Below, in pieces: positions 3,883 through 60,702 of a DNA stretch of 64,000 bases. This DNA comes from Eledone cirrhosa (lineage: Eukaryota), in assembly GCA_964016885.1 (NCBI GenBank), contig OZ024745.1, forward strand, positions 22,444,001 through 22,508,000, given 5' to 3'. The notes under the pieces were generated by a model that worked only from the letters and a program-made list of their open reading frames with translations, did not search any database and was not told the DNA's origin. Numbering within the stretch: the first letter of the stretch is position 1; every line of letters begins with the position of its first letter. Both the position numbers and the translations under genes were made by a program.

Positions 3883-4560
3883 TCTAAACTATAATAAAGA
3901 AAGGAGTGCGGCACTACGTCCAGAATAGATTTTTTTTTATCCCGTTTGTAAAATAAGTTGGATTACTTTGATTAAATAATTGTTTCTACTTTAGGCACAA
4001 GGCCAGCAATTACCCAGTGCATTACTGGTACTTTATTTTATCGACCCCGTAAGGATGAAAGGCAAAGTCGACCTTGGCGGGATTTGAACTCAGATCGTAA
4101 AGGGACGTAACTATGCTGGAAAGCATGGCGTCCGACCCTCTACTGATACTGCCAATCCACCGCAAATAATGAATGAATATTATGTAATTTATCTACTAAA
4201 TTTCGTTATTCTTGATTAAATATAAATAATTATGTTGCTTATTTTAAGATTCACTTCTTTAAAATTTTCAAGTATCAACACTTCCGGTTAGCGATCGCTT
4301 AAATAAACAGTAATATCTTTCCGTCACCAATTTTCTCCTAATGCAGTTTATATATAATATCGTCTTTTTTTAATGTATCATGGTTACGTTACTGATTACA
4401 TAAGACAGTGTAACACAGTCTTCGTTCAATTTCTGTGTATATTTCAATTACGATTTCATTTGATGTATCTTATCTACATGCATATATACTTGCGTATAAT
4501 ATCAATATACACACTACACATGCTAGCAGAAAACAACCCGAAGGCTGGTTCTTCTGCTAG
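3883..4560 (+). mobile_element. Non-autonomous Helitron nested in the hAT MITE
   Basis: A|TC start, subterminal hairpin, CTAG|T end; homologous copy at 52978-53459. Confidence 0.8.
3981..4163 (-). mobile_element. tRNA-derived SINE nested in the Helitron
   Basis: B box GAGTTCAAATCC on minus; AAATAAT duplicated at both ends; site is empty in the 53k Helitron copy. Confidence 0.9.
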
Positions 4561-7147: not shown

Positions 7148-7435
7148 TTGTACGTATATTTAGATACGTGTTAAAAGGACCCACGTGAGTAAAGAAGGGG
7201 AGATGCACCAGTCAGAAACAACGGAAAACCTGAAAGTATAAGAATTTCCAGAAGTTGACGGAGAAACGGAAAAGAAATGACTGTTCAATTTTCCGTTGTT
7301 TTTTTCCGTTGTCTTTGTCATGTGCGCCCTACTTTTGTTGATATATATATATATATATCAACAAAAGTATATATATATATATTATGAAATACTGTTGGCT
7401 TCTTGCTCACAATAATTTCTATACTTTTCATTTAG

Positions 7436-8036: not shown

Positions 8037-8127
<91 letters not shown>

Positions 8128-11387: not shown

Positions 11388-11392
<5 letters not shown>

Positions 11393-11604
11393 GTGGTTAC
11401 ACAGCAGTTAGTTCACCATATCGAGAGCAATTGTTTCACCTTAGCGGATCCTGAGCTCGTAATCCGGATTACGAGCTGGGGATCCGCTAAGGTGAAACAA
11501 TTGTTCTCGGTATGGTGCACTAACTGTTGTGTAACCACTTCTACCTAACTCGTCCTATGGACGGAGTGCTCTGGCACTACGGATATTACCTTCCAGTGTT
11601 CTAC

Positions 11605-11610
<6 letters not shown>
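11388..11610 (+). repeat. Fold-back insert in (TA)n (palindrome 11388-11543 plus unique tail)
   Basis: ~78-bp arms centred on TCCGGA; carries GAAACAATTGTT, a hammerhead 3'-half motif. Confidence 0.85.
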
Positions 11611-11649
<39 letters not shown>

Positions 11650-11650
<1 letters not shown>

Positions 11651-12547
11651 GAGCTGTGTCAGAAAAGTTCCAGGACTGATGTCACAAAAGATTTATTTCA
11701 AACCCAAACTTCACACTAAGAGTTTTCTCCTTCAAAGTAATCCCCCTGTAGTCTAATGCACTTTTCCATCCTTTTCTGCCACGCTTGCATGCACTCCTGG
11801 AAGGATTCTTCCAGGAACCTCCGCAGTTCCGTCGTCACGGCCTTTTTGATGTCGTCCACGTCTTCAAAACGGGTCCCCTCCGGGTCGTACTCGAAGATCC
11901 ATGACTCATCACCGGTGATGACTGTCCCTAGCAAGTTTGGTTCGGTTTCAAGACGCTCGAGGATGTCCTGGCACACTTGAATGCGTCTTCCCTTCTGGTC
12001 ATCGTTCAGCAGTTTTGGCACTATCTTCGCGCAGACTCTCCGCATGTCCAAATCTTCAGTGAGAATCTTCCAGACGCTGTCCCGATTCATACCCAGCTCA
12101 TTTGCCATCAGTCGAAATGTCAGCCGACGATCGCTACGCACCATCTGCCTGACGCGCTCAACGTTGACCTCAGTCCTGGTTGTTGAGGGCCTTCCGCTCA
12201 TGGGGTCATCTTCCACGTTTTCGCGTCCTTCTTTAAACCTCTTGCACCACTCAAAAACACGTGAGCGTGACATCGTCTCATCTCCATACACTTGCTGCAG
12301 CGGAGTTTTCCCAAACCGTACCAGAAACTTCAAGTTTGTTCGTTTGTCTGTGCTCATTGCTTGACGACCTGAAACAGAGGACATGTATATAAAATTATGT
12401 AGAAAAAGTTTGATCGCTGCAGAGAGCTAAGATTACAGTTACATACTCCAGGGGGATTACTTTAAAGGAGAAAACTCTTAGTGTGAAGTTTGGGTTTGAA
12501 ATAAATCTTTTGTGACATCAGTTCTGGAACTTTTCTGACGCACCTCG
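11650..12547 (-). mobile_element. Internally deleted mariner element with ~100-bp TIRs, in (TA)n
   Basis: TA|CGAG...CTCG|TA ends; 11650-11748 inverted at 12449-12547. Confidence 0.93.
11716..12384 (-). pseudogene. Mariner transposase with in-frame internal deletion (222 aa)
   Basis: HTH region, SGRP, IVPKLL (WVPHEL equivalent), TGDESW, C-terminal GDYFEG; second Asp and YSPDLAP(D) missing. Confidence 0.92.
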
Positions 12548-16547: not shown

Positions 16548-16918
16548 TAAAAGAATCGAGGTGTAACACACGAGTTATGATATATTGGTAAAAGGAAAAG
16601 AAAATGCTGACAAATTGTTCCCAGTGAAAAATAGTTTAATTAGGAATAAGTAAAAATTAGTAATAGTATTGGTTAGTATTCAGTTTTGGTTTTAAGTTTT
16701 ACCGGTTGCGCATTTCTAATGCTTTTCAAAAATAATTTTGAGATAGAGCGCCCGTGATATTTGCTCTAATCTAACCAGATTAGAGCAAACATCACGGGCG
16801 CTCTATCTCAAAATTATTTTTGAATAGCATTAGAAATGCGCAACCAATAAAACTTAAAACCAAAACTGAATACTAACCAATACTATTACTAATTTGTCAG
16901 CATTTTCTTTTCCTTTTA

Positions 16919-16922
<4 letters not shown>
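16548..16922. repeat. Fold-back insert carrying a U3-A8 hammerhead-like motif (16696-16733, minus)
   Basis: Inverted arms around 16770-16776; UUGAAAA-GCAU..AUGC-GCAA-CCGG-UA. Confidence 0.8.
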
Positions 16923-17412: not shown

Positions 17413-17885
<473 letters not shown>

Positions 17886-17960
17886 ATTAAAATACTAGAG
17901 CGTGTTGGAGTTAAACACCCTCTTCGTATTATAGAAATGAAAATACTTCTTGTTGTTTTA

Positions 17961-18046: not shown

Positions 18047-18117
<71 letters not shown>

Positions 18118-18129
18118 AAATAAAATAAA

Positions 18130-18930
18130 ATAATAGTATTTATAGTTATGTATATACTATAAACAAGTATAAACATGAAAGGTCAGTAATTTCCTACTAC
18201 CTTATTACCAGTAAGAGAAATAGCTCAATGTAAGAACATCAGTCGTTTTACAGAGCAGGAAAATAAATAAATTAAACAAATGTCAAAGTTGTGTTCAAAT
18301 CATTTAATAGCTGACAATCGTTTCTTCCTAACTCTCGTTTGGAGTCATTAGAGCAATATCAATGTTTGTACATATAATTAACCTCCTATCCAACTGAACA
18401 ATAATATAGATACATATATATTGATGTTGTGAGCAACAGTTTCGTATTTACAGGGTGGAATGGATGTGACATATATTTTACGAGAATTGTACAATAATTA
18501 TACAAAAATTCAAATTAAAATTAAAAGCACAGTGGAATACATGCAACAGATAAAACAAGAGAATAGTCTAATAATTAAAGAGGCATTGAGAAATGTGTTT
18601 TGAGAAATGCCTCTTTAATTATAGGACTATTCTCTTGTTTTATCTGTTGCATGTATTCCACTCTGCTTTTAATTTGAATTTGAATTTTTGTACAATTATT
18701 GTACGATTCTCGTAAAATATATGTCACATCCATTCCACCCTGTAAATACGAAACTGTTGCGCACAACATCAATATATATGTATCTATATTATTGTTCAGT
18801 TGGATAGGAGGTTAATTATATGTACAAACATTGATATTGCTCCGATGATTCCAAACGAGAATTTGGAAGAAACAATTGTCAGCTATTAAATGATTTGAAC
18901 ACAACTTTGATAATTGTCTAATTTATTTTT
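18130..18930. repeat. Large fold-back insert (~330-bp arms), one hammerhead motif per arm
   Basis: Arms 18260-18587 / 18606-18930; motifs at 18310-18354 (-, CUAAUGA) and 18839-18883 (+, CCGAUGA), each one change from CUGAUGA. Confidence 0.9.
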
Positions 18931-19119: not shown

Positions 19120-19125
<6 letters not shown>

Positions 19126-19475
19126 GTGAGGTTTTTTTTACAAATTGAAAAATGACCGAGGTGTCCTACACGAGTGAAAGTATAAAGAAAAAGAGATGAA
19201 ATCGAAAATGCAACTGGAGTCTTATTTTCTTTTTAAATATATATATTTATTTGGTTCCTTTACCGGTTTCGCAGTACTTCTGCTTTTCAAAAGGTGAGTT
19301 GAGATGGTGGGTCTGTGGTTTTTCTCACATCTGATGGGAGAAAAACCACAGACCCTCCATCTCAACTCACCTTTTGAAAAGCAGAAGTACTGCGAAACCG
19401 GTAAAGGAACCAAATAAATATATATATATTTTTTTTAAATAAGACTCCAGTTGCATTTTCGATTTCATCTCATTG
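19120..19475. repeat. Fold-back insert with a U3-A8 hammerhead in both arms
   Basis: Arms ~19194-19326 / 19337-19471. Confidence 0.9.
19370..19407 (+). ncRNA. Minimal type I hammerhead, U3-A8 core variant (mirror copy 19257-19294 minus)
   Basis: CCUU-UUGAAAA-GCAG(AAGUA)CUGC-GAAA-CCGG-UA-AAGG. Confidence 0.8.
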
Positions 19476-20521
19476 CATATATATATATATATGCAATGAG
19501 ACTGTGTGCAGCTTTAGTCTAGCAAATTTCAATCACAATGTGTTGGTCAATGCGATTATAGTTAATGACACGTGTCCCAGAGACTGAGTCCAATGGCTGG
19601 ATTGCAGACATATATATACATAGGTTTTTTTCCTTTTCTTTCCACACAGAGACATATTTTTTCAAAACATATTTCCCTACAAATCCATCAGATATTTAAT
19701 ATGTGGAATTTCAAGCAGTGAAATTAGAAAACATAGAATTTTAATTTCCTCCTTTTAAAAAATAATTTCCTTAAATCCTTCTGCACACCATCGAGAGTGA
19801 TCTAATTAGATTTGTTTGAGTATTCCAAAATGGAAATTGGTGGTAAAAAATAAAACAATAAACATTTTGAAATTTTAATCGCCGATGTTTCAGATTAAAA
19901 CCAGGATAGAACAAATTTAAAAAACATTTTTACATGGCGTACTTATTCCGGTACATTTTTTTAATTTAAACAAAATATCCTTCAATATTGTTTAAAGTGT
20001 TTCCACTTACAAAATAATCTTATTACTGTTATGAGATTTATAACTCCAGTAGATTTCCTTTTGTATACAAACATATATCGTTTGTATTTGAAGTGTATAT
20101 ATAAGTATACTATATTTGGATTTGTAATTACAATTTCATCCTCAATAAATTGAAACTAAAATATATGCATCTTACATTTTTAGGAAGAAAAGCAAGAATT
20201 CTTTCAAATATAATCAAAATATATTCATACATTTCAATGTAAACGAAATATATATATACGTAAAAGCAAAAGTACTGCAGCTGTAAATCCTCAAGCCTTA
20301 ATCAGTATGACAGGTAAATAAAACATTGTAAACGGTATTTGTGAAATTAAAATCAAATCTTCAAAAATCCGAAGACCGTTCCACCAAAATTGTCGTATTC
20401 TGGCTTCGTTTCCAGTTTCGATAGTGTACCTACTCAAAAGGATATATACATACATACAAACAAACATACAAACATACAAACACACACACACACACGCGCG
20501 CCAACACAGACACACACACAA

Positions 20522-21734: not shown

Positions 21735-21904
21735 ATATATATATATATGTACGTCAATACTCATCTTTTTCCATTTCTCCGAGGGTTCTTAACCCCACTA
21801 TCGGGCTAAAATAATTTCTTTAATTTCTTTAGTCAAAATACGGCGATAGCTAACATTTCTAATAATTTCAAATCCACTCGCTGTTTCGAAAATATTCTTA
21901 CTTG

Positions 21905-22103: not shown

Positions 22104-22699
22104 TAAATTTTTTTTAAAAAAATATTTTCTTATTTTACGTCCTTTATATTATTGTTCTGCATTCTCCTGCATTGAACCACCTAGGTACTATGACATAACC
22201 TGTGTATTTGCTGGCATGGGCGTGCATCTGTGCGCTTATGTTAGTTGATATATTAAATTATCTATATTTATCTCCAAATCACTGATTTGTCGAGCAAACT
22301 TGTCAAAACCACTTCTAAAAAAGTTTTTTTTGGGGTGTTAGTAGGCGTCAGTCATCTTACCATCCCATTCCTTCTAACTAGCTTCTGTGTCACGTGATTG
22401 ATTCTTTAGAATCGGCCATTTGACTTGAAGCAGTGAGAATATCGGTACATAGAATCCAGTCCTCGCAAGCTGTTCGATCTACCGAATTATTATTATTTTT
22501 ATATGAGCCGCCAGTGTCCGCGCATTGCCTGGAGACTTAACTGAGAATAGACTTCCTGATGACGCAATGAATTCTCGACAGTTGGATTACGTAACTGTCT
22601 TTATCCCATTGCAGAAACTAATTAGTTGGAGTGAAAATTTAAGTAAGAAAAAAATTTTTTTTAAATTTTTTTTAAAAAAATATTTTCTTATTTTACGTC

Positions 22700-22705
<6 letters not shown>
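22104..22705 (+). mobile_element. Retrozyme-like element, ~558-bp unit with terminal redundancy
   Basis: Direct repeat of TAAATTTTTTTTAAAAAAAATATTTTCTTATTTTACGTCCTTTATAT at both ends; homologue at 40451-41107. Confidence 0.75.
22551..22632 (+). ncRNA. Type I hammerhead with extended stem II
   Basis: ACUUC-CUGAUGA-C-GCAAUG[..GACAGUU/AACUGUC..]CAUUGC-A-GAAA-CUAAUUAG-UU-GGAGU. Confidence 0.8.
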
Positions 22706-22761
<56 letters not shown>

Positions 22762-35273: not shown

Positions 35274-35558
35274 CAGGCAACTTCGACAAAATTACATAAC
35301 AGGGTTACGTTGACCCCAAACATATCACGGAAGACAGGGAAAAGAGAATAGGAACTTGAAAATTAAAAATTCGTTTCGGGGACTACCTGTAAAAAGACAT
35401 TTCTATTGGGAGGAGGCAGTCCCCGGAGACAACAGCTTTTTACAGTCAGTCCCCAAATCGAATTTTTAATTTTCTTTTTCCTATTCTCTTTTCCCTATCT
35501 TCCGTGATATGTTTCGGTTCAACGTAACCATGTTATGTAATTCTGTGGAGGTTACCTG
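35274..35558. repeat. Diverged fold-back inverted repeat (~125-bp arms)
   Basis: AATTACATAACA..AACATATCACGGAAGA..GAGAATAGGAA mirrored on the right. Confidence 0.85.
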
Positions 35559-36183: not shown

Positions 36184-36400
36184 AGTAAGTATATATATAT
36201 ATATATATATAGGAGTAAGTAAGACCCCGACGGCTGAGCTCAAGCCGTTTCGACGGCTAATTCAGTACAGAATTAGCCGTCGAAACGGCTTGAGCTCAGC
36301 CGTCGGGGTCTTACTTACTCCTATTACCCACTCTACTACCCTAAGTATTGAGTACTTTGGTGCGTTATGGTCCACCTGGTTCCTTACCACTCTTCCCTCG

Positions 36401-36429
<29 letters not shown>

Positions 36430-36432
<3 letters not shown>

Positions 36433-36796
36433 TTCACCGTATTTTTTACTAAAGGAATGTTAGCCTGATAATGGGGTTTAGAACCCTCAGATAAATGGAA
36501 AAAGATGAGTATTGACGTACATGGGAGTCGAACGCACATCTTTGGTTATCGCGACCACTGTGCTACCATTATTTGAATGGAAAGGGATGGCTGATGTGTT
36601 GGTGTAATGGTAGCACAGTGGTCGCGATAACCAAAGATGTGGGTTCGACTCCCTTGTACGTCAATACTGATCTTTTTTCATTTATCTGAGGGTTCTAAAC
36701 CCCATTATCAGGCTAAAATTCCTTTAGTCAAAAATACGGTGAAAACTATATATTTTTTAATTTCAAACCTGCTTACTGTTTCAAAACATACTTACT

Positions 36797-36800
<4 letters not shown>
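36430..36800 (+). mobile_element. Fold-back insert with tRNA-like (Pol III A/B box) head
   Basis: Arms 36432-36570 / 36606-36745; TGGTGTAATGGTAGCAC...GGGTTCGACTCCC; related piece at 21749-21905. Confidence 0.75.
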
Positions 36801-37981: not shown

Positions 37982-38055
<74 letters not shown>

Positions 38056-38267
38056 ATATTTGGGGAGGGTCATATTTGCGTAATATTGCCAGAATTAATA
38101 ACAGAACACACTCACTGTTTGGTTGGTTTTCGCTTCTCGCTGTCTTTTATATATATATATCTGCGATCTAACTTACTCGGTCCTCAATGTTGCCATTGAC
38201 TGACCGGCGGTCAAAAATAATACAGATACAATATAGACACAAACACATATATATAGTTTACATAATT

Positions 38268-38309
38268 TACATAAATCTTTCGTTGCACATCTGCAACATC
38301 GTCAGTGGT
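38268..38309 (-). ncRNA. Minimal hammerhead in Penelope 3' region
   Basis: CUGACGA-U-GUUGCA(GAUG)UGCAAC-GAAA-GAUU-UA; stem I weak. Confidence 0.7.
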
Positions 38310-38575
38310 GTTATATTCATTGTTCCTCCTGTTGTGTTGTATGTCTACGCCATTTTTTTTTTGTTCAGTCTGTCTATATATTTATTTATTTATTTGCTTG
38401 TTTGTTTATCTTATTTTATTTTGTCTTCTTTGCGCATGCGTTTGCGTGTGTGTATAGTGTTATGTGTGATGTGTGACTAGTGTGTATAGTGTTGTGTCTG
38501 CTGGGTGACTAGTGTGTGTTTATGTGCTTGTGTATGTATTTATTTATCTTATTTTATTTAATTTTATTTACTTAT

Positions 38576-39543
38576 TTATACTTCTCTTAGGTCAGTGTTG
38601 TTTGTTTGGGTGTTGTTGTTGTTCCACTCATTCTTTCTGTTTAGCTTTGGTCTTCTAATTTCTATTTCACTGGCCTCTCTGATTTGCATATCTGCTGGGT
38701 CATTCCTATGTTTAGATATTATTCTAATTTCTATGTTGTCTATGTTACCGTCATGTTGTTGTCTAGCATGTTCGTATAGTACTGACACGTTTTTTCGTCC
38801 TTTTAGTTCCCCCCAGTGTTGGTCTATCCTTTCACCTATGCTACGAGCTGTCTCACCTATGTATGTTGTTGTCATGTTTCTGCAAGTACCCTCTGTACAT
38901 CTTATGCTATAGACTACGTTTCTAGTTTTACAGTTTATCCGGGGGTTCACCTTACAAATGATACATTTCCTATTGGTACAGTGGGTTTTCTTAAAAGGGT
39001 AGGTTTTGCTGATCAGGGATTTTATGGTGGTTCCTGGCTTTTCTACCACCTTTATTTTTAAGTGGGTCTTTCTCAGGGCCTTTCTACACTGGTTAGCTAA
39101 TTTCCCTCCAGGGGTGGCGTCCACAAACATGACACTCTGATATCTCTGGTTGTCGTACCATGATGTGGCCTTCCCTATCTTATGTCTAGCCCTATCTAAG
39201 CTATTCCATGATTTGCTCCTGTATAGTGGGCAAATTCCTTTCATGTCCAGTTCTATGAGGGTCTTATACTTTTCCATGGCTCCTTCGTATACTCTGACTC
39301 TGTCTCTTTGGTTGTAGCCAGAGAACTGCATGCGGTTGATGAAGTGTTGGATGTGTCCTTCCATTTCTGTTGGGTCGCACATGCTGGACACATTCTTCAT
39401 CACTCGTACCAAATCTGCGATCAGAATATTAAACTTAGCACTACTGGACATTGCTGAGTTTTTGAGTATCAGGTATTTGGAGGCCATGGGTTTAGCATAG
39501 TGTGAGTGGAGAATTTGGGCTCTCTCGTCTATAGTGTTAATCC

Positions 39544-39545
<2 letters not shown>
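38576..39545 (-). CDS. Penelope-like RT thumb + GIY-YIG endonuclease (N-truncated, frame open)
   Basis: HYAKPM, FSGY, C-x3-C-x2-C linker, NVVYSIRC...YIGET.R....R..QH...REASEI...PKLN; ORF-track N-terminus is TA repeat. Confidence 0.9.
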
Positions 39546-39620
<75 letters not shown>

Positions 39621-39624
<4 letters not shown>

Positions 39625-40048
39625 TATGTACACGTACATACATATATGTATACAGACGTACAGTAGTATGTATATATATATATATATATATACATGCATA
39701 CACACATATATATATGTACGTATGGATTCACCGAACATTTATTATAATGCTCGGTGTGTTTGTAAACAAACATCCCGATTTAAGCCGTACAGTGTCTAGC
39801 AACCATCGTTGCTCATTTGTTCAACACTGACAAAGGAACGCTGTACTAGTTTCAAGCTTATTAGCTATCGTCAGCAACGTATACCTTCTTGCCAGATGGT
39901 TTAACGTCTGAAAGTATATACTTTCCTTATGCATATTAACGGCTGAGCAGCCTAATTTGCATATCGAGTGAGTTAATCGGCCGGGGTACCGAAAACGATA
40001 AACGGAAAAAATGAAACGAAATTTCATTTCTCAGTCTTAGTACGGCTG
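39621..40048 (-). mobile_element. Retrozyme-like unit (~440 nt), permutation 1, hammerhead at 39839-39879
   Basis: CGUUG-CUGACGA-U-AGCU(AAUA)AGCU-U-GAAA-CUAG-UA-CAGCG on minus. Confidence 0.8.
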
Positions 40049-40063
40049 TATATATATATATAT

Positions 40064-40378
40064 ATACTACTGTACATCTGTATAAATATATGTATGTACG
40101 TATACATACTTATATTAAAGTAACAGCCGTACTAAGAGTGAGAAATGAAATTTCGTTTCATTTTTTCCGTTTATCGTTTTCGATACCCTGGCCGATTAAC
40201 TCACTCGATATGCAAATTAAGCTGCTCAGCCGTTAATATGCATAAGAAAAGTATATACTTTCAGACGTTCAACCATCTGGCAGGAAGGTATACGTTGCTG
40301 ACGATAGCTAATGAGCTTGAAACTAGTACAGCGTTCCTTTGTCAGTGTTGAACAAATGAGCAACGATGGTTGTTAGAT
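40064..40378 (+). mobile_element. Same unit, inverted, permutation 2, hammerhead at 40293-40333
   Basis: Reverse complement of the neighbour, but reads through that copy's end-to-start junction. Confidence 0.8.
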
Positions 40379-40380
40379 GG

Positions 40381-40450
<70 letters not shown>

Positions 40451-40456
<6 letters not shown>

Positions 40457-41107
40457 CGTAAAATAAGAAAATTCTTAAAAAAAGTTTTTTAAAAAAATTT
40501 TAACTTACTTAAATTTTCACTCCAACTAATTAGTTTCTGCAATGGGATAAAGACAGTTACGTAATCCAACTGTCGAGAATTCATTGCGTCATCAAGGAGT
40601 CTATTCTTAGCTAAGTCTCCAGGCAATGCGCGGACACTGGGGACTCATATAAAAATAATAATAATTCGGTAGATGGAACAGCTAGCGGGGGCTAAATTCC
40701 ATGCACCGAAATCCTCGCTGCCTCTGGTCAAATGGCCGATTCTAAAGAATCAATCACGTGACACAGAGGCTAGTCAGTAGGAATGGGATGGTAAGATGAC
40801 AGACGCCTACTAACACCCCCCAAAAAAAATTTAGAAGTGGTTTAGGCAGGTTTGCTCGACAAATCAGTGATTTGGAGATAAATATAGATAATTTAATATA
40901 TCTACTAACATAAGCGCACAGATGTATGCTAATGCCAGCAAATACACAGGTTATGTCATAGTACCTAGGTGGTTCAATGCAGGAGGATGCAGAACAATAA
41001 TATAAAAGACGTAAAATAAGAAAATTCTTAAAAAAGGTTTTTAAAAAAAATTTTAACTTACTTACTTAAATTTTCACTCCAACTAATTAGTTTCTGCAAT
41101 GGGATAT
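40451..41107 (-). mobile_element. Retrozyme-like element, ~553-bp unit plus ~100-bp redundancy; hammerhead 40519-40600
   Basis: 40451-40549 repeated at 41004-41106; homologous to 22104-22705. Confidence 0.78.
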
Positions 41108-42518: not shown

Positions 42519-42687
42519 ATATATAATATATATATATATAGTAATAATAATAAATTTGAAGACTAAAATCGAAAGAGGGCTCGATAAGGATGAATATATA
42601 TCAAATATATAAGAACCCTAGAGCAAATATTTATTAAAATAACACCGATTCTTTGCTTAAACTTTAATCTGTTATCTTAATAAATAA

Positions 42688-42785
<98 letters not shown>

Positions 42786-42898
42786 TTATTTATTAAGATA
42801 GATGGGGGTGTCTTAACTACGATGTTTATATCATCTACGTAGCGGGAGTACATTATCAGGGTTAAGCTGTCTTCTAATTGTTCATTAAGTTTTTGTAA

Positions 42899-44131
42899 GG
42901 CGACATAGCTAACTTATTCATGGTATGGTGGGACAGTAGACTTAAACAAAAACTTAATGAACAATTAGAAGACAGCTTAACCCTGATAATGTACTCCCGC
43001 TACGTAGATGATATAAACATCGTAGTTAAGACACCCCCACTAAAGAACAGTCAGGAACTAGAGAAAAACACAATGGAAAGCATCCAGCAAATAGCAAACT
43101 CCATCCACCAGAGCATTAGAGTTACTATAGACTACCCAAGTAGACACCCCAACCATCGATTACCTGTACTAGACACAGAGCTCTGGTTAGATACCATTAA
43201 CAACCAAAAACAAATCCTCCATTCCCATTATGCCAAACCCATGACTTCCAAACATCTGATCCACCGAAACTCGGCCATTTCGGACCATACCAAAATCAAC
43301 ATACTGATTGCGGATTTGGTACGGGTGATGAGAAATGTGTCCCGCATGTGCAACCCCGAAGAACTAGAGAGACACATACAACACTTTATCTACCGTATGC
43401 AGTTCTCTGGCTACAATCAGAGAGATAGAATCAGAGTGTATAAAGGAGCCAGAACCAAATGGGAAAAAATGGTAAATAATGACATAAATGGGACCTGCCC
43501 CTTGTATAGGAGCAAATTTTGGAATAGAATAGAAAGAACTAGGAACAAGGCCAATAAAATAAACTCATGGTATGATAGCAATAAATACCAGAGTGTAATG
43601 TTCATCAATACAACCCCTAGAGGCGAACTAGCCTACAAATTTAGAAGGGCCCTAAATAAACATAACCTCAATATTAAGATAGTAGAAAGACCTGGTACCT
43701 CCGTAAAAACACTTATTAGCAAGACATACCCGTTCCAAAGACCCTCATGTATAGATAAGAAATGTATAACCTGTAAAATAAGCCCCCATATTAACTGTAA
43801 AACTAGAAATGTAGTGTATAGCATAAGATGTACTGAAGGACAATGTAGAAACAAAAATATAGTGTACATAGGTGAGACAGCTCGTAGTATAGGGGAACGA
43901 ATAAATGAACACTGGCGAGACCTCCAAGATAATAAAGAATCATCTGTGCTCTACCAACATGCTAAGATAGAACACAGGGGTAGATTAGAGAGCATAGAAA
44001 TAAAAATAGAATCCACGCACAGAAAAGATGTAATGTTTAGGCAAATTACAGAGGCAGTAAGCATAAAAGAATTAAAACCAAAATTAAATAGAAAATATGA
44101 GTGGAACAGCAACATCACAACTTACAATTAA
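42899..44131 (+). CDS. Penelope-like reverse transcriptase (partial) + GIY-YIG endonuclease
   Basis: [38 protein letters not shown]...R..EH, ITEAVSI..LKPKLN; no stops. Confidence 0.93.
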   Translation, partial: GDIANLFMVWWDSRLKQKLNEQLEDSLTLIMYSRYVDDINIVVKTPPLKNSQELEKNTMESIQQIANSIHQSIRVTIDYPSRHPNHRLPVLDTELWLDTINNQKQILHSHYAKPMTSKHLIHRNSAISDHTKINILIADLVRVMRNVSRMCNPEELERHIQHFIYRMQFSGYNQRDRIRVYKGARTKWEKMVNNDINGTCPLYRSKFWNRIERTRNKANKINSWYDSNKYQSVMFINTTPRGELAYKFRRALNKHNLNIKIVERPGTSVKTLISKTYPFQRPSCIDKKCITCKISPHINCKTRNVVYSIRCTEGQCRNKNIVYIGETARSIGERINEHWRDLQDNKESSVLYQHAKIEHRGRLESIEIKIESTHRKDVMFRQITEAVSIKELKPKLNRKYEWNSNITTYN

Positions 44132-44409
44132 GGACAAAATGAAAACACACACACACATAGAACAAACAACTTACAATTGAAAACACACACAAAATGAAAA
44201 CACACACAGGACAAAATGTAAACACACGCACACACATAGAACAAACAACCAACCAACAATAAATAAATAAACAAATAGAAAAATGAACACAAACACACAC
44301 AGACACCCGGTGTGGCACATGCGCAAACTGAGCACACAACACACACACAGAAACAAAATGGCGTAGGATAGAAGAAAGAAAAGGCACAGAAACGAAGAAA
44401 GCAATCCCC

Positions 44410-44454
44410 AGTCACTGAAGAGGTCACAGAGTGTGTGACGAAAGGACTATGACT
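44410..44454 (+). ncRNA. Minimal type I hammerhead in Penelope 3' region
   Basis: AGUCA-CUGAAGA-G-GUCACA(GAGUG)UGUGAC-GAAA-GGAC-UA-UGACU. Confidence 0.85.
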
Positions 44455-44618
44455 ATATATATAAACAACTATCTGGTTGTGGAACCAACCAACCAACCAA
44501 CCAGAAATTTATAAGTTTGTAGATTTGCAAATTTATAAATTTATAAATATATAATAAATTGAAGTGAAAGCAACTGGTGCGTGTGTTTCTTATTGGCAAC
44601 ATGACCCTCCCAAAGTAT

Positions 44619-44686
<68 letters not shown>

Positions 44687-44859: not shown

Positions 44860-45356
<497 letters not shown>

Positions 45357-47839: not shown

Positions 47840-48535
47840 GATGAAAACAGCGAGAAAAAGACGATTATTATGAAGAAAAAAATGTTTTTTCCCTTTTTAT
47901 TTATCTCTCTCTTTTTTCTGGGTTAGAAAATGATTAAAACGAAATATTTTACTTTGTGTGAAGTGTTAAGGTATTAGTTGCTTTATTTATTAATTAACAA
48001 TGGCATTTATTTATTTATTTATATATTTAATAATTGTCTATTACCGGTTTCAGCATTTTTATGCATTATCAAATGATAATAATATGTATTGGTGTAAAAT
48101 GGTGGTGTTGAACATGTTAAAGAAATGGTGCAGAAGGAATAATGTTATTTACAAACAAGGTTTTCTTTTCGCTTCATAAACCTTGTTTGTAAATAACATT
48201 ATTCTTTCTGTACCATTTCTTTAACATGTTCAACACCACCATTTTACACCAATACATATTATTATCATTTGATAATGAATAAAAATACTGAAACCGGTAA
48301 TAGACAATTATTAAATATATAAATAAATAAATACCATTGTTAATTAATAAATAAAGCAACTAATGCCTTAACACTTCACACAACGTAAAATATTTCGTTT
48401 TAATCATTTTCTAACCCAGAAAAATGAGCGAGAAAAATAAAAAGAGGAAAAACTAAATTTTTCTTCCTAATAATCGTCTTTTTCTCCGTTTTCATATATA
48501 TATATCCTAACTCGTGTGCATCCTCTCCTCATTTT
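47840..48535. repeat. Large fold-back insert (~320-bp arms) with U3-A8 hammerhead-like motifs (48037-48076 -, 48265-48304 +)
   Basis: Centre 48163-48177; UUGAUAA-U-GCAU(AAAA)AUGC-U-GAAA-CCGG-UA. Confidence 0.85.
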
Positions 48536-48680
48536 ATTATTATTATATACATATATACACACACACACATACACACATATATATATAAATGAAAATAGAG
48601 AAATTAATGTGAGCAAGAAGTCAACAGTAATTCATAATATATAAGTGACTATTACGTGAAGATGGAAAATATTTAACGTA

Positions 48681-53560: not shown

Positions 53561-53569
<9 letters not shown>

Positions 53570-54100
53570 TAAACAAATAATGAATAAAACAATGAAACAG
53601 TTCCTTATATTAAACAAAAAAATTCATTATTTAACGATCGTTTCTAGGATATATATGTGTTAGAATTGGCATGCATATTCAACAGATCTATGTACAAAAT
53701 TATACAAAATTATACAAACTATCAAGATTAAATATACATACCAAACACACATATTTCATTATTTCTGAAGACGGCGTATATGTGTGTTTGGTATGTATAT
53801 TTAATCTTGATAGTTTGTATAATTTTGTATAATTTTGTACATAGATCTGTTGAATATGCATGCCAATTCTAACACATATATATCCTAGAAACGATCGTTA
53901 AATAATGAACTTTTTTTGTTTAATATAAGGAACTGTTTCATTGTTTTATTCATTATTTGTTTAATATTTTATCTTGACTCTGTATACCGTTTATCTTTCA
54001 CCGAAAGTGATTTTTCATTACATCTCTTCTTTCCATGATATCCGGAATACATTGAGTTCTTCATACGGATTGGACACTACCGTAAACTATTGGTAGATTT
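53561..54100 (+). repeat. Near-perfect fold-back insert (~190-bp arms)
   Basis: 53561-53754 mirrored at 53778-53972. Confidence 0.92.
53755..53909 (+). ncRNA. Type I hammerhead with ~115-nt stem II domain
   Basis: UUCAUUAUUU-CUGAAGA-[GUAUAUGUGU...ACACAUAUAU]-GAAA-CGAUCG-UU-AAAUAAUGAA; perfect 10-bp stem I. Confidence 0.75.
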
Positions 54101-54103
54101 ATC

Positions 54104-54144
<41 letters not shown>

Positions 54145-56914: not shown

Positions 56915-57518
56915 TGTTGAAGCTGATATAATAAGCAATGTGAGTCGATATTCAATCACTTGTAGGCGACTCGCCATATCTTTCAGTAGGGAGTGAATGT
57001 TTATGTAAAAAGAAAAGGGTATTTAAAACCAGACTGTCGAGTTATGGAGAACAGCAAAACTTCTGGATGATAGCCACAACACGACAGAAGAAAGTTAATA
57101 GAGATAGATGAGTTGTTTCTTCTTCTTCAGCCCCCGGAAAGTCTGTTATTGGAAATAGGCATACCCTGAGCTGCACCGTCGTAGCCGATCTTGAGCCATT
57201 CATGGCCAATCTTTTTCAATTTTCTTGAGGTCGTCTCGACCTCTGGTTTTCTGGTGGCCCTGGTTTCCTGTGTGACCACTTGGCGGCTAGCAGAGTTAAT
57301 AGATGTCTTAATGGAACAAAAATAAATCAGTTCTATGAAGTGGGGTTGCAATGAACTGCAATGTCTCCTCTACAAATCCAGAGATTACAGAGAGCCTGTG
57401 AGAAGAACTCCAGCTGCGTATGATCGTATAAACATTCACTCCCTGCTGAAATATATAGAGAGTCGGGTACAAGTGATTGAATATCGACTTGCATCGCTTA
57501 CTATATCAGTTTCAACTT
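56915..57518. mobile_element. MITE-like element with ~90-bp diverged TIRs; contains an RTE 3' fragment (57115-57275, minus)
   Basis: AGTCGATATTCAATCACTTGTA..GGGAGTGAATGTTTAT mirrored at 57427-57515; DDLKK...MAQDR and (GAA)n tail inside. Confidence 0.6.
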
Positions 57519-58874
57519 GGGTCGATACACGCAGGACTTGAACTCATTAATTAGAATGGTGAAACTATGGATAAATATCCCAGGGTAGCGAGGGAACATT
57601 AATGGCGACCAGAACAATAACAAGAAGAATTCGAGCAACAGGGGATAATGAACAATAATTGCAGTGAGGTCAATGACACAGCAACAACAAAGAAGAGGAA
57701 GATGATGAGGATTAGGAGGAGGAGGAGGAGGAGGATGAGAAGGAGGAGGAGAGGAAGGGGCAGGAGAAGGGGATTCAAAGAAGAAAAAGAAAAGTGAGGA
57801 GAACTACACGAGGAAAAGCAACAACAACAAAAAAAGAAAAACAAATGAATAAGAAAAAGAAGAAACATCTGATGACATTAATAAAACTACGGAAAGGATG
57901 AAGAGAAAGGAGAAGGGAAAAGAAGAGGAAGAGGGGGAGGGGTGGAAAAGAGGGAAGTGGAAGTGGAGGAGAAGAAAACAGGAACTACAGGGAAAGAGAA
58001 AAGGGTACACAGAGAGACAAGTTAGGTTGAGGGAGAGACACAGAGAGAGATAGGGGGGGGGCAGAGATAGAGACAGAGACAGGGAGATGGGGAGAGGAGA
58101 AGTGTGGGTAGAAAAAAGATTTGAGGGGTGGGGTTAGAAGAAGAATTGATATCCAAAATTTTCTGTAGAAATACGACAGTATGCTGAAAAGTTCATAGGC
58201 TGACTCTGAAACATTGATGCTACAGCTGTGAAATCTTGCATGCATTAATTTCAACTCTTCTTCTTAATAACTGCATTGTTTCTTTGCAGGGACTATGTTG
58301 AAAGATAAACCTCATTTGGTCATTCCATGAGAGTCACTTGGTCAGCCAATGAACTTTTCAGTCGACCGCGTACAAAACTGAAGAGAAATGACGAAAGTAA
58401 AAATTTGAACATGTAGTATATGTTTAGGCCGATGTTGGGGTTGAGATTCCGTAGTTATGTCCTTCATTTAATGGAACGGTATGGTGGCATTTGGGGGATA
58501 TTCACCTGTTATTTCTAGCTAGTTGAAGGATCATCTAGATGTTTCTTGTGTGTCAGGTGAATATATATATGAGTATATAGATAGTCAGATATATGAACAA
58601 TATACACACACGCACATATACACGCACAGAAACACGCACACACACACGCACACAGACAAACACACACAGGCACACAGACACACACGCAGATACACATTCA
58701 CAATCTGAACGGAACGCGATCAAGTCAGTCACCTACATATCCAATCTCCGTCGTTTCTTACTGTTCTTCCCACAGGCAATAGCACACACATACACACACA
58801 TACACACACACACATACACACAAATACACACACACACATACACACACACACACCTATATATATATATATATATT

Positions 58875-59410
58875 TTTTGAGCTGACTTTTGGGATGCTCC
58901 CATACAGCTCTGAGTTTTTCATCCTCAGTGTATACTGATTAATGTTCAGAGCCATCCTCAGCATTCTCGTGTAGCACCCATCCACCATCTGAGTGAGTCT
59001 CTTGGTCAGTGTCCAAGTCTCAGACCCATACAGCAGCACAGACTCCACTACAGCAATGAAGAGGCGGATTTTCAGGTCTCTACGAAGGTCCGACTTCCAC
59101 ACCGATCTCAAGCTGTGACACGCCGCCCAGGCCTTGCTCTTCCTCTCAACCACATCATCTTCCGTATTCCCAGAGGAGACTGAGGTTGGCTGGACATGCT
59201 CACCGACATCCAGAGTTGACATTGCACTCAGTGCTCCTTTGGGAGCCCCTACATGGACACACTAGAAGAGGAAGACCAAGGTTAACATATGTTGATGCCC
59301 TAAGGACAGACACTGGTCTGTTGGAGATGCAGGATATGGCAGCGATAATGAGGGACAGAGACCGCTGGAGAGAACTCGTCCATGGATCTCGGGAATTTTA
59401 CCCGCCTTAG
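58875..59410 (+). mobile_element. RTE-group LINE 3' fragment with inverted 5' portion
   Basis: 58875-59171 (-) ESVLLYGSETWTLT...RMLR; 59172-59410 (+) RLAGH...RGRPRLTYVD...DRDRW. Confidence 0.9.
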
Positions 59411-60287: not shown

Positions 60288-60339
<52 letters not shown>

Positions 60340-60340
<1 letters not shown>

Positions 60341-60702
60341 AAAAGAATGCAACGAAATTTCATTTCTCACTCTTAGTACGGCTGGTACTTAAATGTAAGT
60401 ATGTATACGTACATACATATATGTATACAGACGTACAGTAGTATGTATATATATACATACATGCACACATATATATATATATGTACGTATGGGTTTACCG
60501 AACATTTATTATAATGCTCGGTTTGTTTGTAAACAAACAGCCCGAATTACGCCGTACAGTGTCTAGCAACCATCGTTGCTCATTTGTTCAACGCTGACAC
60601 AGGAACGATGTACTAGTTTCAAGCTTATTAGCTATCGTCAGCATCGTATACCTTCCTGTCAGATGGTTGAACGTCTGAAAGTATATACTTTCCTTATGCA
60701 TA
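60340..60702 (-). mobile_element. Retrozyme-like unit, permutation 3, hammerhead at 60606-60646
   Basis: On plus it starts with the sequence that ends 39621-40048; stem I CGAUG/CAUCG. Confidence 0.8.

What the first reader, a model, noticed from the sequence alone, without database searches (positions are those of the whole stretch)
42803..43038. Penelope 5' end carries an inverted duplication that explains the window's palindromes
42803-42897 is a reverse-complement duplicate of RT-coding sequence ~45 nt inside the truncation point, while the original stays intact. This differs from the LINE twin-priming inversion at 58875, where nothing is duplicated. The same geometry (inverted arm, short unique 5' spacer, longer main arm) recurs at 11388, 16548, 17590, 18130, 18943, 19120, 35274, 36210, 36430, 44860, 47840, 53561 and 61153. 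Inferred: cDNA snap-back second-strand priming is a routine integration step. Inverted pLTR ends are known for Penelope elements; this frequency is striking.
Basis: partly seen in the sequence, partly recalled or inferred. Interest (0 to 1): 0.72.

Follow-up and report, generated by a model that had tools for sequence, protein, structure and literature searches.

The report
Fold-back ends of Penelope retrotransposon insertions
A truncated Penelope-type jumping gene begins with an exact mirror copy of 94 bases of its own coding sequence, likely made when the new DNA strand folded back on itself during insertion; such mirrored ends are a known trait of this class, here unusually dense.

Summary
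42803-42896 is the exact reverse complement (94/94) of 42946-43039, inside a 5'-truncated, (TA)n-inserted Neptune-type Penelope-like element (PLE). The 49-nt spacer is in-frame RT sequence; public contigs place the truncation at 42898. All 13 other listed palindromes exist, plus six more.

'Same geometry, routine step' is only partly right. Six of 13 have a spacer of 4 nt or less. The spacer belongs to the long arm in 2 of 6 informative cases and to the short arm in 4. Only 2 of 9 canonical-hammerhead loci carry an arm. Most short palindromes look like head-to-head pLTR pairs with the known PLE 'tail', which priming from both target strands could also make.

New detail: the focal junction also holds a 19-nt inverted copy of the target flank, and the arms appear to be regenerated per copy.

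Inverted 5' copies and self-priming were already described for PLEs (PMC3846280, PMC8557442), and snap-back for R2 (PMC11371274). The scan found a similar case in another genome (e1-7507279). This insertion was not confirmed in independent reads.

The parts
42673..42691 (+). left target flank (end of an older palindromic insert, 42541-42691); source of the flank copy
   Evidence: 19-nt exact palindromic extension across the (TA) run
42692..42781 (.). (TA)n target run, 90 nt
42782..42800 (-). inverted 19-nt copy of the target flank at the 5' junction, followed by 2 unassigned bases (42801-42802)
   Evidence: about 0.03 expected at this length from mismatched flank pairs; partly low-complexity
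42803..42896 (-). inverted arm: exact reverse complement of 42946-43039, covering the YVDD RT motif region
   Evidence: 94/94; both arms carry the minority letter seen at 42958
42897..42945 (+). spacer: one base that differs from other copies (42897), then sense, in-frame RT sequence from the truncation point 42898
   Evidence: loose end before 42898 in 9 contigs of X9; homolog alignment
42946..43039 (+). template arm, intact and in frame
42899..44131 (+). 5'-truncated PLE ORF, 410 aa: RT C-terminal part, C-x4-C-x2-C linker, GIY-YIG endonuclease with CCHH
44415..44459 (+). minimal hammerhead ribozyme motif in the 3' pLTR region
44460..44684 (+). 3' end of the element (about 44623), then (TA)n; last 33 nt match the end of the second PLE
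   Evidence: high family depth up to 44620
38052..39545 (-). second Neptune-type PLE, 5'-truncated directly at (TA)n with no inverted arm (counter-example)
16548..16921 (-). head-to-head pLTR-type palindrome, family B; degenerate U3-A8 hammerhead; 39-nt tail
17590..17820 (+). family B copy with a different centre and the same outer end; 40-nt tail
18110..18930 (-). 323-bp palindrome; near-canonical hammerhead in the arms (18842)
19120..19501 (-). palindrome with a U3-A8 hammerhead in both arms; inverted arm joined through a 9-nt inverted flank copy with 3-nt overlap
47840..48545 (+). about 310-330-bp palindrome with a U3-A8 hammerhead
36205..36402 (+). family A palindrome (also at 8126, 18943, 36005, 60197, 61153): half-hammerhead, inverted arms end at one fixed TAT site about 80 nt before the 3' end
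36430..36800 (+). tRNA-headed insert (tRNA-Ser call at 36592-36664) with a 149-bp inverted arm; spacer in main-arm sense
11388..11608 (+). palindrome with a degenerate hammerhead-like motif; no spacer
53561..54107 (+). 194-bp palindrome, 23-nt spacer; only a weak half-hammerhead
35274..35558 (.). 123-bp palindrome, 39-nt spacer; family not assigned
44950..45235 (.). old diverged palindrome; family not assigned
58874..59409 (.). LINE fragment with a twin-priming-type inversion and no duplication (control)

Best explanation
A Neptune-type Penelope-like element inserted into a (TA)n run and is truncated at 42898; its first-strand cDNA end likely folded back about 45 bases onto itself and was extended for 94 bases, then likely copied 19 bases of the neighbouring target flank and annealed through (TA)n, leaving an inverted duplication beside an intact original. 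Shown: the arms, the sense in-frame spacer, the truncation point, the flank copy, the element type. Inferred: the order of events, and which polymerase did the copying (PLE RT or host repair). Most other palindromes are likely short non-coding PLE pLTR fragments in the known head-to-head arrangement. Their near-zero spacers also suggest fold-back. Their fixed outer ends at TA-like sites fit either annealing to the (TA)n target or priming from the second target strand. The outcome is frequent here but not obligatory.
For: Arms are 94/94 with a 49-nt spacer. The spacer continues the ORF in frame and matches the conserved RT stretch of homologs. Nine X9 contigs leave the window exactly at 42898 and run on into the natural upstream coding sequence, so the spacer belongs to the main copy, as snap-back requires. 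Both arms share a letter at 42958 that 42,315 of 44,989 depth units in X9 and all of X12 do not have: one template lineage. The arm's outer end lies mid-ORF, about 1.4 kb before the next TA run, not at a pLTR start site. Inverted flank copies occur at 42782 (19 nt), 19493 (9 nt) and 7359 (11 nt), against about 0.03, 0.3 and 0.05 expected. cDNA ends priming on cDNA or on nearby target DNA are seen for R2 (PMC11371274). In family A, arms of one copy are 91-98% alike (3 of 3 pairs) and arms of different copies 70-89% (25 pairs), so arms are regenerated per copy or lineage. X9 holds another opposite-strand joint, 43553/43608, at depth 19.9 in a different copy (polarity not given).
Against: Microhomology at the focal fold-back is only about 2 nt and needs a 2-nt slip or one untemplated base. 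In 4 of 6 cases with a reference (8126, 61153, 42541, 39623) the spacer belongs to the short arm. At 39623 the short arm holds sequence absent from the long arm, which simple snap-back cannot make. Only 2 of 9 canonical-hammerhead loci have an arm, and 0 of 9 related metagenome loci show a long fold-back (short contigs, weak test). A purified PLE cuts and extends both target strands from two RNA start sites (PMC11167929), a route to head-to-head pairs without snap-back. No contig shown bridges this particular junction.
Confidence: 0.65

Rival explanations
1. Dual target-primed reverse transcription: both target strands prime separate cDNAs (dimeric enzyme, two RNA start sites) and the two cDNA ends are joined head to head. 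It is unlikely for the focal mid-ORF arm but plausible, perhaps as likely as snap-back, for the short pLTR palindromes.
For: PAc cleaves and extends both strands, and its two start sites define the tail (PMC11167929). Inverted arms end at one fixed site per family, 38-40 nt (B) and about 80 nt (A) before the 3' end. The spacer is on the short arm in 4 of 6 informative cases; at 39623 the two arms (133/138) are barely closer to each other than to another copy (130-131/138).
Against: Two independent cDNAs should not end within 0-4 nt of each other in 6 of 13 sites. The focal arm starts mid-ORF and ends within 49 nt of the truncation point. Outer ends show TA-type microhomology of 3 nt or more in 7 of 15 arms against 6% background (the copies of families A and B are not independent), whereas PAc initiation was reported not to need homology.
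Confidence: 0.2
2. The fold-back is done by host end-joining (polymerase-theta-like snap-back; recalled knowledge) on any insertion or break in self-complementary (TA)n, and is not specific to Penelope.
For: Inverted copies of target flank at three (TA)n runs. A tRNA-headed insert and three unassigned inserts show the same form. R2 insertions in human cells give snap-back junctions.
Against: 0 of 9 copies of the window's other SINE and 0 of 2 further LINE fragments have a 5' arm (best scores 10 or less), and the LINE inversion has no duplication. This view is compatible with the best explanation as to geometry; it differs in the enzyme.
Confidence: 0.2
3. Inherited palindromic masters: one old fold-back copy per family is transcribed, and its built-in hairpin reproduces the same centre in all progeny, so the count overstates independent events.
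For: Family A centres recur about 15-17 nt upstream of the GAAA motif in 18943, 36210, 60197 and 36005, and the 5' half of the hammerhead is missing in all of them.
Against: Family B copies have different centres. Copy-specific segments are mirrored in both arms. It cannot apply to the focal arm, because other copies run on upstream of 42898.
Confidence: 0.15
4. Amplification or assembly chimeras.
For: The focal arms are identical, and no listed contig bridges the junction; the raw-read run X15 laid 0 reads.
Against: The other arms have diverged (88-99%), the arms coincide with element 5' ends and family-specific outer ends, and an opposite-strand joint occurs in independent short-read contigs.
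Confidence: 0.04

Closest known systems
Inverted 5'-truncated copy / inverted pLTR of endonuclease-containing PLEs (PMC8557442 Fig. 2 text; Pen2a_Av, Pen3a_Av in PMC3846280)
   Same: Head-to-head inverted copy directly at the 5' end, palindromic junction, tail on one end only, (TA)n targets; self-priming was already proposed from such palindromes.
   Different: The focal arm is a 94-nt internal RT segment, not a pLTR. The 2013 proposal used an antisense RNA template; the geometry here fits fold-back of the first-strand cDNA. About 19 cases in 64 kb.
Dual minimal hammerheads on opposite strands 100-700 bp apart in Schistosoma; U3-A8 core variant (PMC4209133)
   Same: Opposite-strand hammerhead pairs at 19290/19374 and 39874/40298; the U3-A8 core in families at 19120 and 47840.
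   Different: A different animal group; family A keeps only the 3' half of the motif.
Snap-back 5' junctions of R2-mediated insertions (PRINT, PMC11371274)
   Same: The cDNA 3' end primes further synthesis on the cDNA or on nearby target DNA before joining.
   Different: There it is an engineered non-LTR R2 system in human cells and one minor junction class; here natural PLE copies.
PAc in vitro mechanism (PMC11167929)
   Same: AT-rich targets; two RT start sites that define a tail.
   Different: PAc is Poseidon clade, and second-strand and inversion steps were not resolved in the parts I read.
LINE twin priming (recalled; example at 58874-59409)
   Same: An inverted segment at the 5' end.
   Different: In twin priming the inverted piece is upstream sequence and is not duplicated; here the original remains.

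Membership tests
EN+ Penelope-like element | one ORF with PLE-type RT and C-terminal GIY-YIG endonuclease | tested here: met
   RYVDD and VYxIxC...YxGETxR are conserved with 102 homologs. Pfam did not hit the focal ORF; homologs P0042 and P0069 give weak RVT_1 and GIY-YIG hits below cut-off.
EN+ Penelope-like element | CCHH motif in the endonuclease | tested here: met
   C300, C311, H338, H354, H359 invariant in 20 sequences
EN+ Penelope-like element | hammerhead motif in the pLTR | tested here: met
   44415-44459; 10 canonical hits in the window against a shuffle mean of 0.24
EN+ Penelope-like element | inverted 5'-truncated copy adjacent to the 5' end (frequent, optional) | tested here: met
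   literature
EN+ Penelope-like element | 5' pLTR / partial tandem and target-site duplication | tested here: inconclusive
   the copy is truncated inside RT and both ends lie in (TA)n, so no duplication can be read
Neptune clade | CX2-5CxxC linker between RT and endonuclease; (TA)n preference | tested here: met
   C284, C289, C292 invariant; definition from PMC8557442. Nematis shares the linker.
Neptune clade | phylogenetic placement against named reference PLEs | not tested
   no named reference set was available; hence 'Neptune-type'
PLE-derived pLTR fragments (13 other listed palindromes) | hammerhead core or homology to a core-bearing copy | tested here: inconclusive
   Met for 19120, 47840, 18130, 16548, 17590; partial for 11388, 18943, 36210, 61153, 53561; not found for 35274, 36430, 44860
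LINE twin-priming inversion | inverted piece not duplicated in the main copy | tested here: not met
   the focal original is intact; the feature is met by the LINE at 58874
MITE / foldback DNA transposon | inverted repeats at both termini of a symmetric unit | tested here: not met
   one arm runs on for 23 to 1414 nt before the next (TA)4 run; true terminal repeats flank only the mariner-like element at 11650-12547

The most novel reading that the evidence does not exclude
In this genome, PLE integration into (TA)n closes its 5' junction by serial DNA-templated jumps of the nascent strand (first onto itself, then onto the target flank). This regenerates a fresh hairpin at a large share of insertions of many PLE-mobilised families, including a tRNA-headed SINE that borrows the PLE machinery. 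It would seed about 300 near-perfect hairpins per megabase and give a natural dataset that can settle the unknown PLE second-strand step.
Probability: 0.25. Interest if true: 0.62.

Novelty: new member of a known kind. Interest (0 to 1): 0.33.

Why it matters
How PLEs make their second strand and their inverted ends is stated as unresolved in PMC8557442 and PMC11167929. A genome with about 19 such junctions in 64 kb (about 5.0 kb of palindromic span) offers thousands of natural junctions. Spacer polarity, allele sharing between arms and outer-end position would separate snap-back from two-strand priming. Dense near-perfect hairpins also matter for assembly errors and, if transcribed, as double-stranded RNA (inference). 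The architecture and the self-priming idea themselves are not new.

Tried and rejected
No whole genome is held, so no genome-wide count was possible. BLASTN self-search missed the local palindromes and was replaced by seed and alignment scans. The exact-arm part had an off-by-one error and was redone. Rfam was swamped by microRNA-like hairpin matches; among the 150 rows shown (of 194) it gave one hammerhead (17961, below gathering score) and one tRNA. A palindromic-stem 'half-hammerhead' scan gave 28 hits against a null mean of 5.3: too noisy to assign single loci. A profile of 450+-aa PLE homologs found only the two ORFs and the focal inverted arm. Pfam on 7 short ORFs from palindromic or tandem inserts found nothing credible. 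A metagenome pattern scan for family A found 0. Nine related metagenome loci showed no long fold-back; the best was 26 nt, a weak test. Run X15 laid 0 reads; X12 and X1 had no depth at 42782-42843; only 24 of about 12,900 pieces and 15 of 49 joints were displayed. RNA folds of the hammerhead candidates are no more stable than shuffles (z -0.1 to -1.2), so they support topology only. A possible old flank copy at 17882 is suggestive only. Literature searches for a PLE-mobilised tRNA SINE, PLE twin priming and R2 repair pathways listed nothing directly relevant by title or abstract; this does not show absence from print. Rejected: MITE/foldback transposons, microRNA genes, LINE-type twin priming for the focal site.

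Full report
SETTING. The window is AT-rich animal DNA full of microsatellites. The best-scoring named homolog of the focal protein is from Octopus bimaculoides at 54% identity, and I recall the window's common SINE as cephalopod-like; the host is therefore probably a cephalopod (inference). No genome is held.

OBSERVATION. 42803-42896 is the exact reverse complement of 42946-43039 (94/94), with a 49-nt spacer. Six more were found: 7550, 8126, 20611, 36005, 39623 and 42541. Spacers are not uniform: 0, 4, 0, 2, 1 and 0 nt at 11388, 16548, 17590, 18943, 19120 and 36210, and 14-57 nt at the other seven.

THE ELEMENT. The ORF 42899-44131 has 102 homologs at E 0.001 or less. It holds the RT motif RYVDD, a C-x4-C-x2-C linker and a GIY-YIG domain with CCHH. 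Pfam does not recognise it. A hammerhead lies at 44415-44459, and the element ends near 44623 in (TA)n, sharing its last 33 nt with a second PLE at 38052-39545. By the definitions in PMC8557442 (passages) this is a Neptune-type PLE; I built no tree.

THE FOCAL JUNCTION. The spacer is in frame and matches the conserved stretch of homologs. In run X9, nine contigs leave the window before 42898 and continue in coding sequence that fits the homologs' upstream motif. So the copy is truncated at 42898, and base 42897 is not natural. The spacer thus belongs to the main copy, as fold-back of first-strand cDNA requires. The complement available at the fold is about 2 nt, followed by a 2-nt slip, or one untemplated base: not above chance. 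Both arms carry the letter at 42958 that 94% of X9 depth and all X12 depth lack. The outer end of the arm is mid-ORF. It is joined, via two extra bases, to an exact 19-nt inverted copy of the flank on the far side of the 90-nt (TA) run. Of 148 (TA) runs, three show such non-microsatellite flank copies (19, 11 and 9 nt; about 0.03, 0.05 and 0.3 expected from mismatched flank pairs). The 9-nt case closes the inverted arm at 19474 with a 3-nt overlap. The simplest path is a nascent strand that primes on itself, then on the nearby target, then anneals by (TA)n. Both kinds of jump are described for R2 insertions (PMC11371274, passages).

INDEPENDENT READS. Four runs were laid on 42782-44620. The family is abundant in X9 (11,821 contigs laid), X12 (634) and X1 (298); X15 laid none. 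No displayed piece bridges this junction, so this insertion is not independently confirmed. Two of the 15 joints shown (34 not shown) change strand: 43553/43608 in X9 (depth 19.9) and 44552/44590 in X12. They show similar inversions with short spacers in other copies, though polarity is not given.

THE OTHER PALINDROMES. Ten canonical hammerhead cores occur at nine loci (null mean 0.24). Three U3-A8 variant cores (described in PMC4209133, passages) occur at 19290, 19374 and 48072 (null 0.05). 16548 aligns with these and 17590 is 86% identical to 16548. 18130 has a one-mismatch core. 11388, 53561 and family A (18943, 36210, 61153) show only partial motifs. 35274, 44860 and 36430 show none, and 36430 carries a tRNA-Ser-like head. 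So 5 of 13 are well tied to PLEs, 5 tentatively, 3 not. PMC4209133 already notes hammerhead pairs on opposite strands 100-700 bp apart.

FREQUENCY. Of the nine canonical-core loci, two (39623 and the focal one) have an arm; seven, including the second ORF-bearing PLE, do not. The variant-core families were found through their palindromes, so they cannot be counted fairly. Controls: 0 of 9 SINE copies and 0 of 2 further LINE fragments have an arm; the LINE at 58874 is inverted without duplication. The trait is therefore frequent and tied to (TA)n-inserted elements, but not obligatory.

TWO CLASSES. In families A and B the inverted arms stop at one fixed site, about 80 and 38-40 nt before the 3' end. 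This is the PLE tail. Outer ends match (TA)n for 3 nt or more in 7 of 15 arms against 6% of background positions (related copies are not independent, and four arms without an adjacent run or a usable main arm were not entered). Arms within a family A copy are 91-98% alike against 70-89% between copies, so they are remade per copy or lineage. The spacer lies on the long arm at 42803 and 36430, but on the short arm at 8126, 61153, 42541 and 39623. Later deletion of palindrome centres could explain the first two of these, not 39623, whose short arm holds sequence that the long arm lacks. PMC11167929 (main text, parts 1-2 of 4) shows a purified PLE cutting and extending both target strands from two RNA start sites that define the tail. 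That gives head-to-head pairs without snap-back, though it does not explain near-zero spacers. I put snap-back at about 0.65 for the focal site, and regard the short pLTR class as open between the two routes.

KNOWN OR NEW. An inverted 5'-truncated copy is described as often present in PLEs (PMC8557442). Palindromic head-to-head junctions were interpreted as self-priming in 2013, on an antisense template (PMC3846280, passages and Discussion). Nine answered literature searches listed no genome-wide test of spacer polarity or of a tRNA-headed PLE partner; I judged most listings by title and abstract only, and most subscription papers are not held. I read no supplements; those of PMC8557442 list cephalopod PLE families and may bear on family names.

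VERDICT. Real, a new member of a known kind. Its value is as a dense dataset for an open mechanistic question, with three small additions: the flank copy, per-copy regeneration of arms, and mixed spacer polarity. Interest 0.33.

Noticed in passing
window 36430-36800 and 21749-21904: tRNA-Ser-headed repeat inserted in (TA)n; one copy has a PLE-like inverted arm and tail, the other is truncated without one. Possibly a SINE moved by PLE enzymes.
   Followed up: partly
window 39623-40382 and 60339-60699: Hammerhead-bearing unit of about 450 bp that occurs circularly permuted or in tandem with variable 3' ends; resembles a pLTR tandem or retrozyme.
   Followed up: partly
window 22105-22710 and 40452-41106: Two copies (91% identical, opposite orientation) of a (TA)n-inserted repeat with partial direct terminal repeats; no arm, no ORF recognised.
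   Followed up: no
window 11650-12547: Internally deleted mariner-like element with about 100-bp terminal inverted repeats, flanked by (TA)n (HTH hits).
   Followed up: no
window 7330-7370: 11-nt inverted copy of flank across a (TA)9 run, not tied to an obvious 5' junction.
   Followed up: partly
window 17806-17905: Possible old, diverged inverted flank copy at the 5' end of the hammerhead insert starting at 17882.
   Followed up: partly
window 18588-18614: The spacer of the 323-bp palindrome contains a 9-nt direct duplication of the start of the right arm, like repeated priming.
   Followed up: no
window 3973-4171, 4685, 5454, 10544, 16033, 29426, 29788, 31965, 55931: Nine copies of one SINE family; pairs in opposite orientation give long-spacer inverted repeats unrelated to fold-back.
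   Followed up: partly
window 56916-57516: 89-bp inverted repeats (88%) 423 nt apart; likely a small DNA transposon.
   Followed up: no
L004:1-3441 and L001:1-4336: Metagenome PLE relatives: L004 has identical 123-nt ends (circular or tandem assembly); L001 is flanked on both sides by a 21-nt tandem repeat.
   Followed up: no
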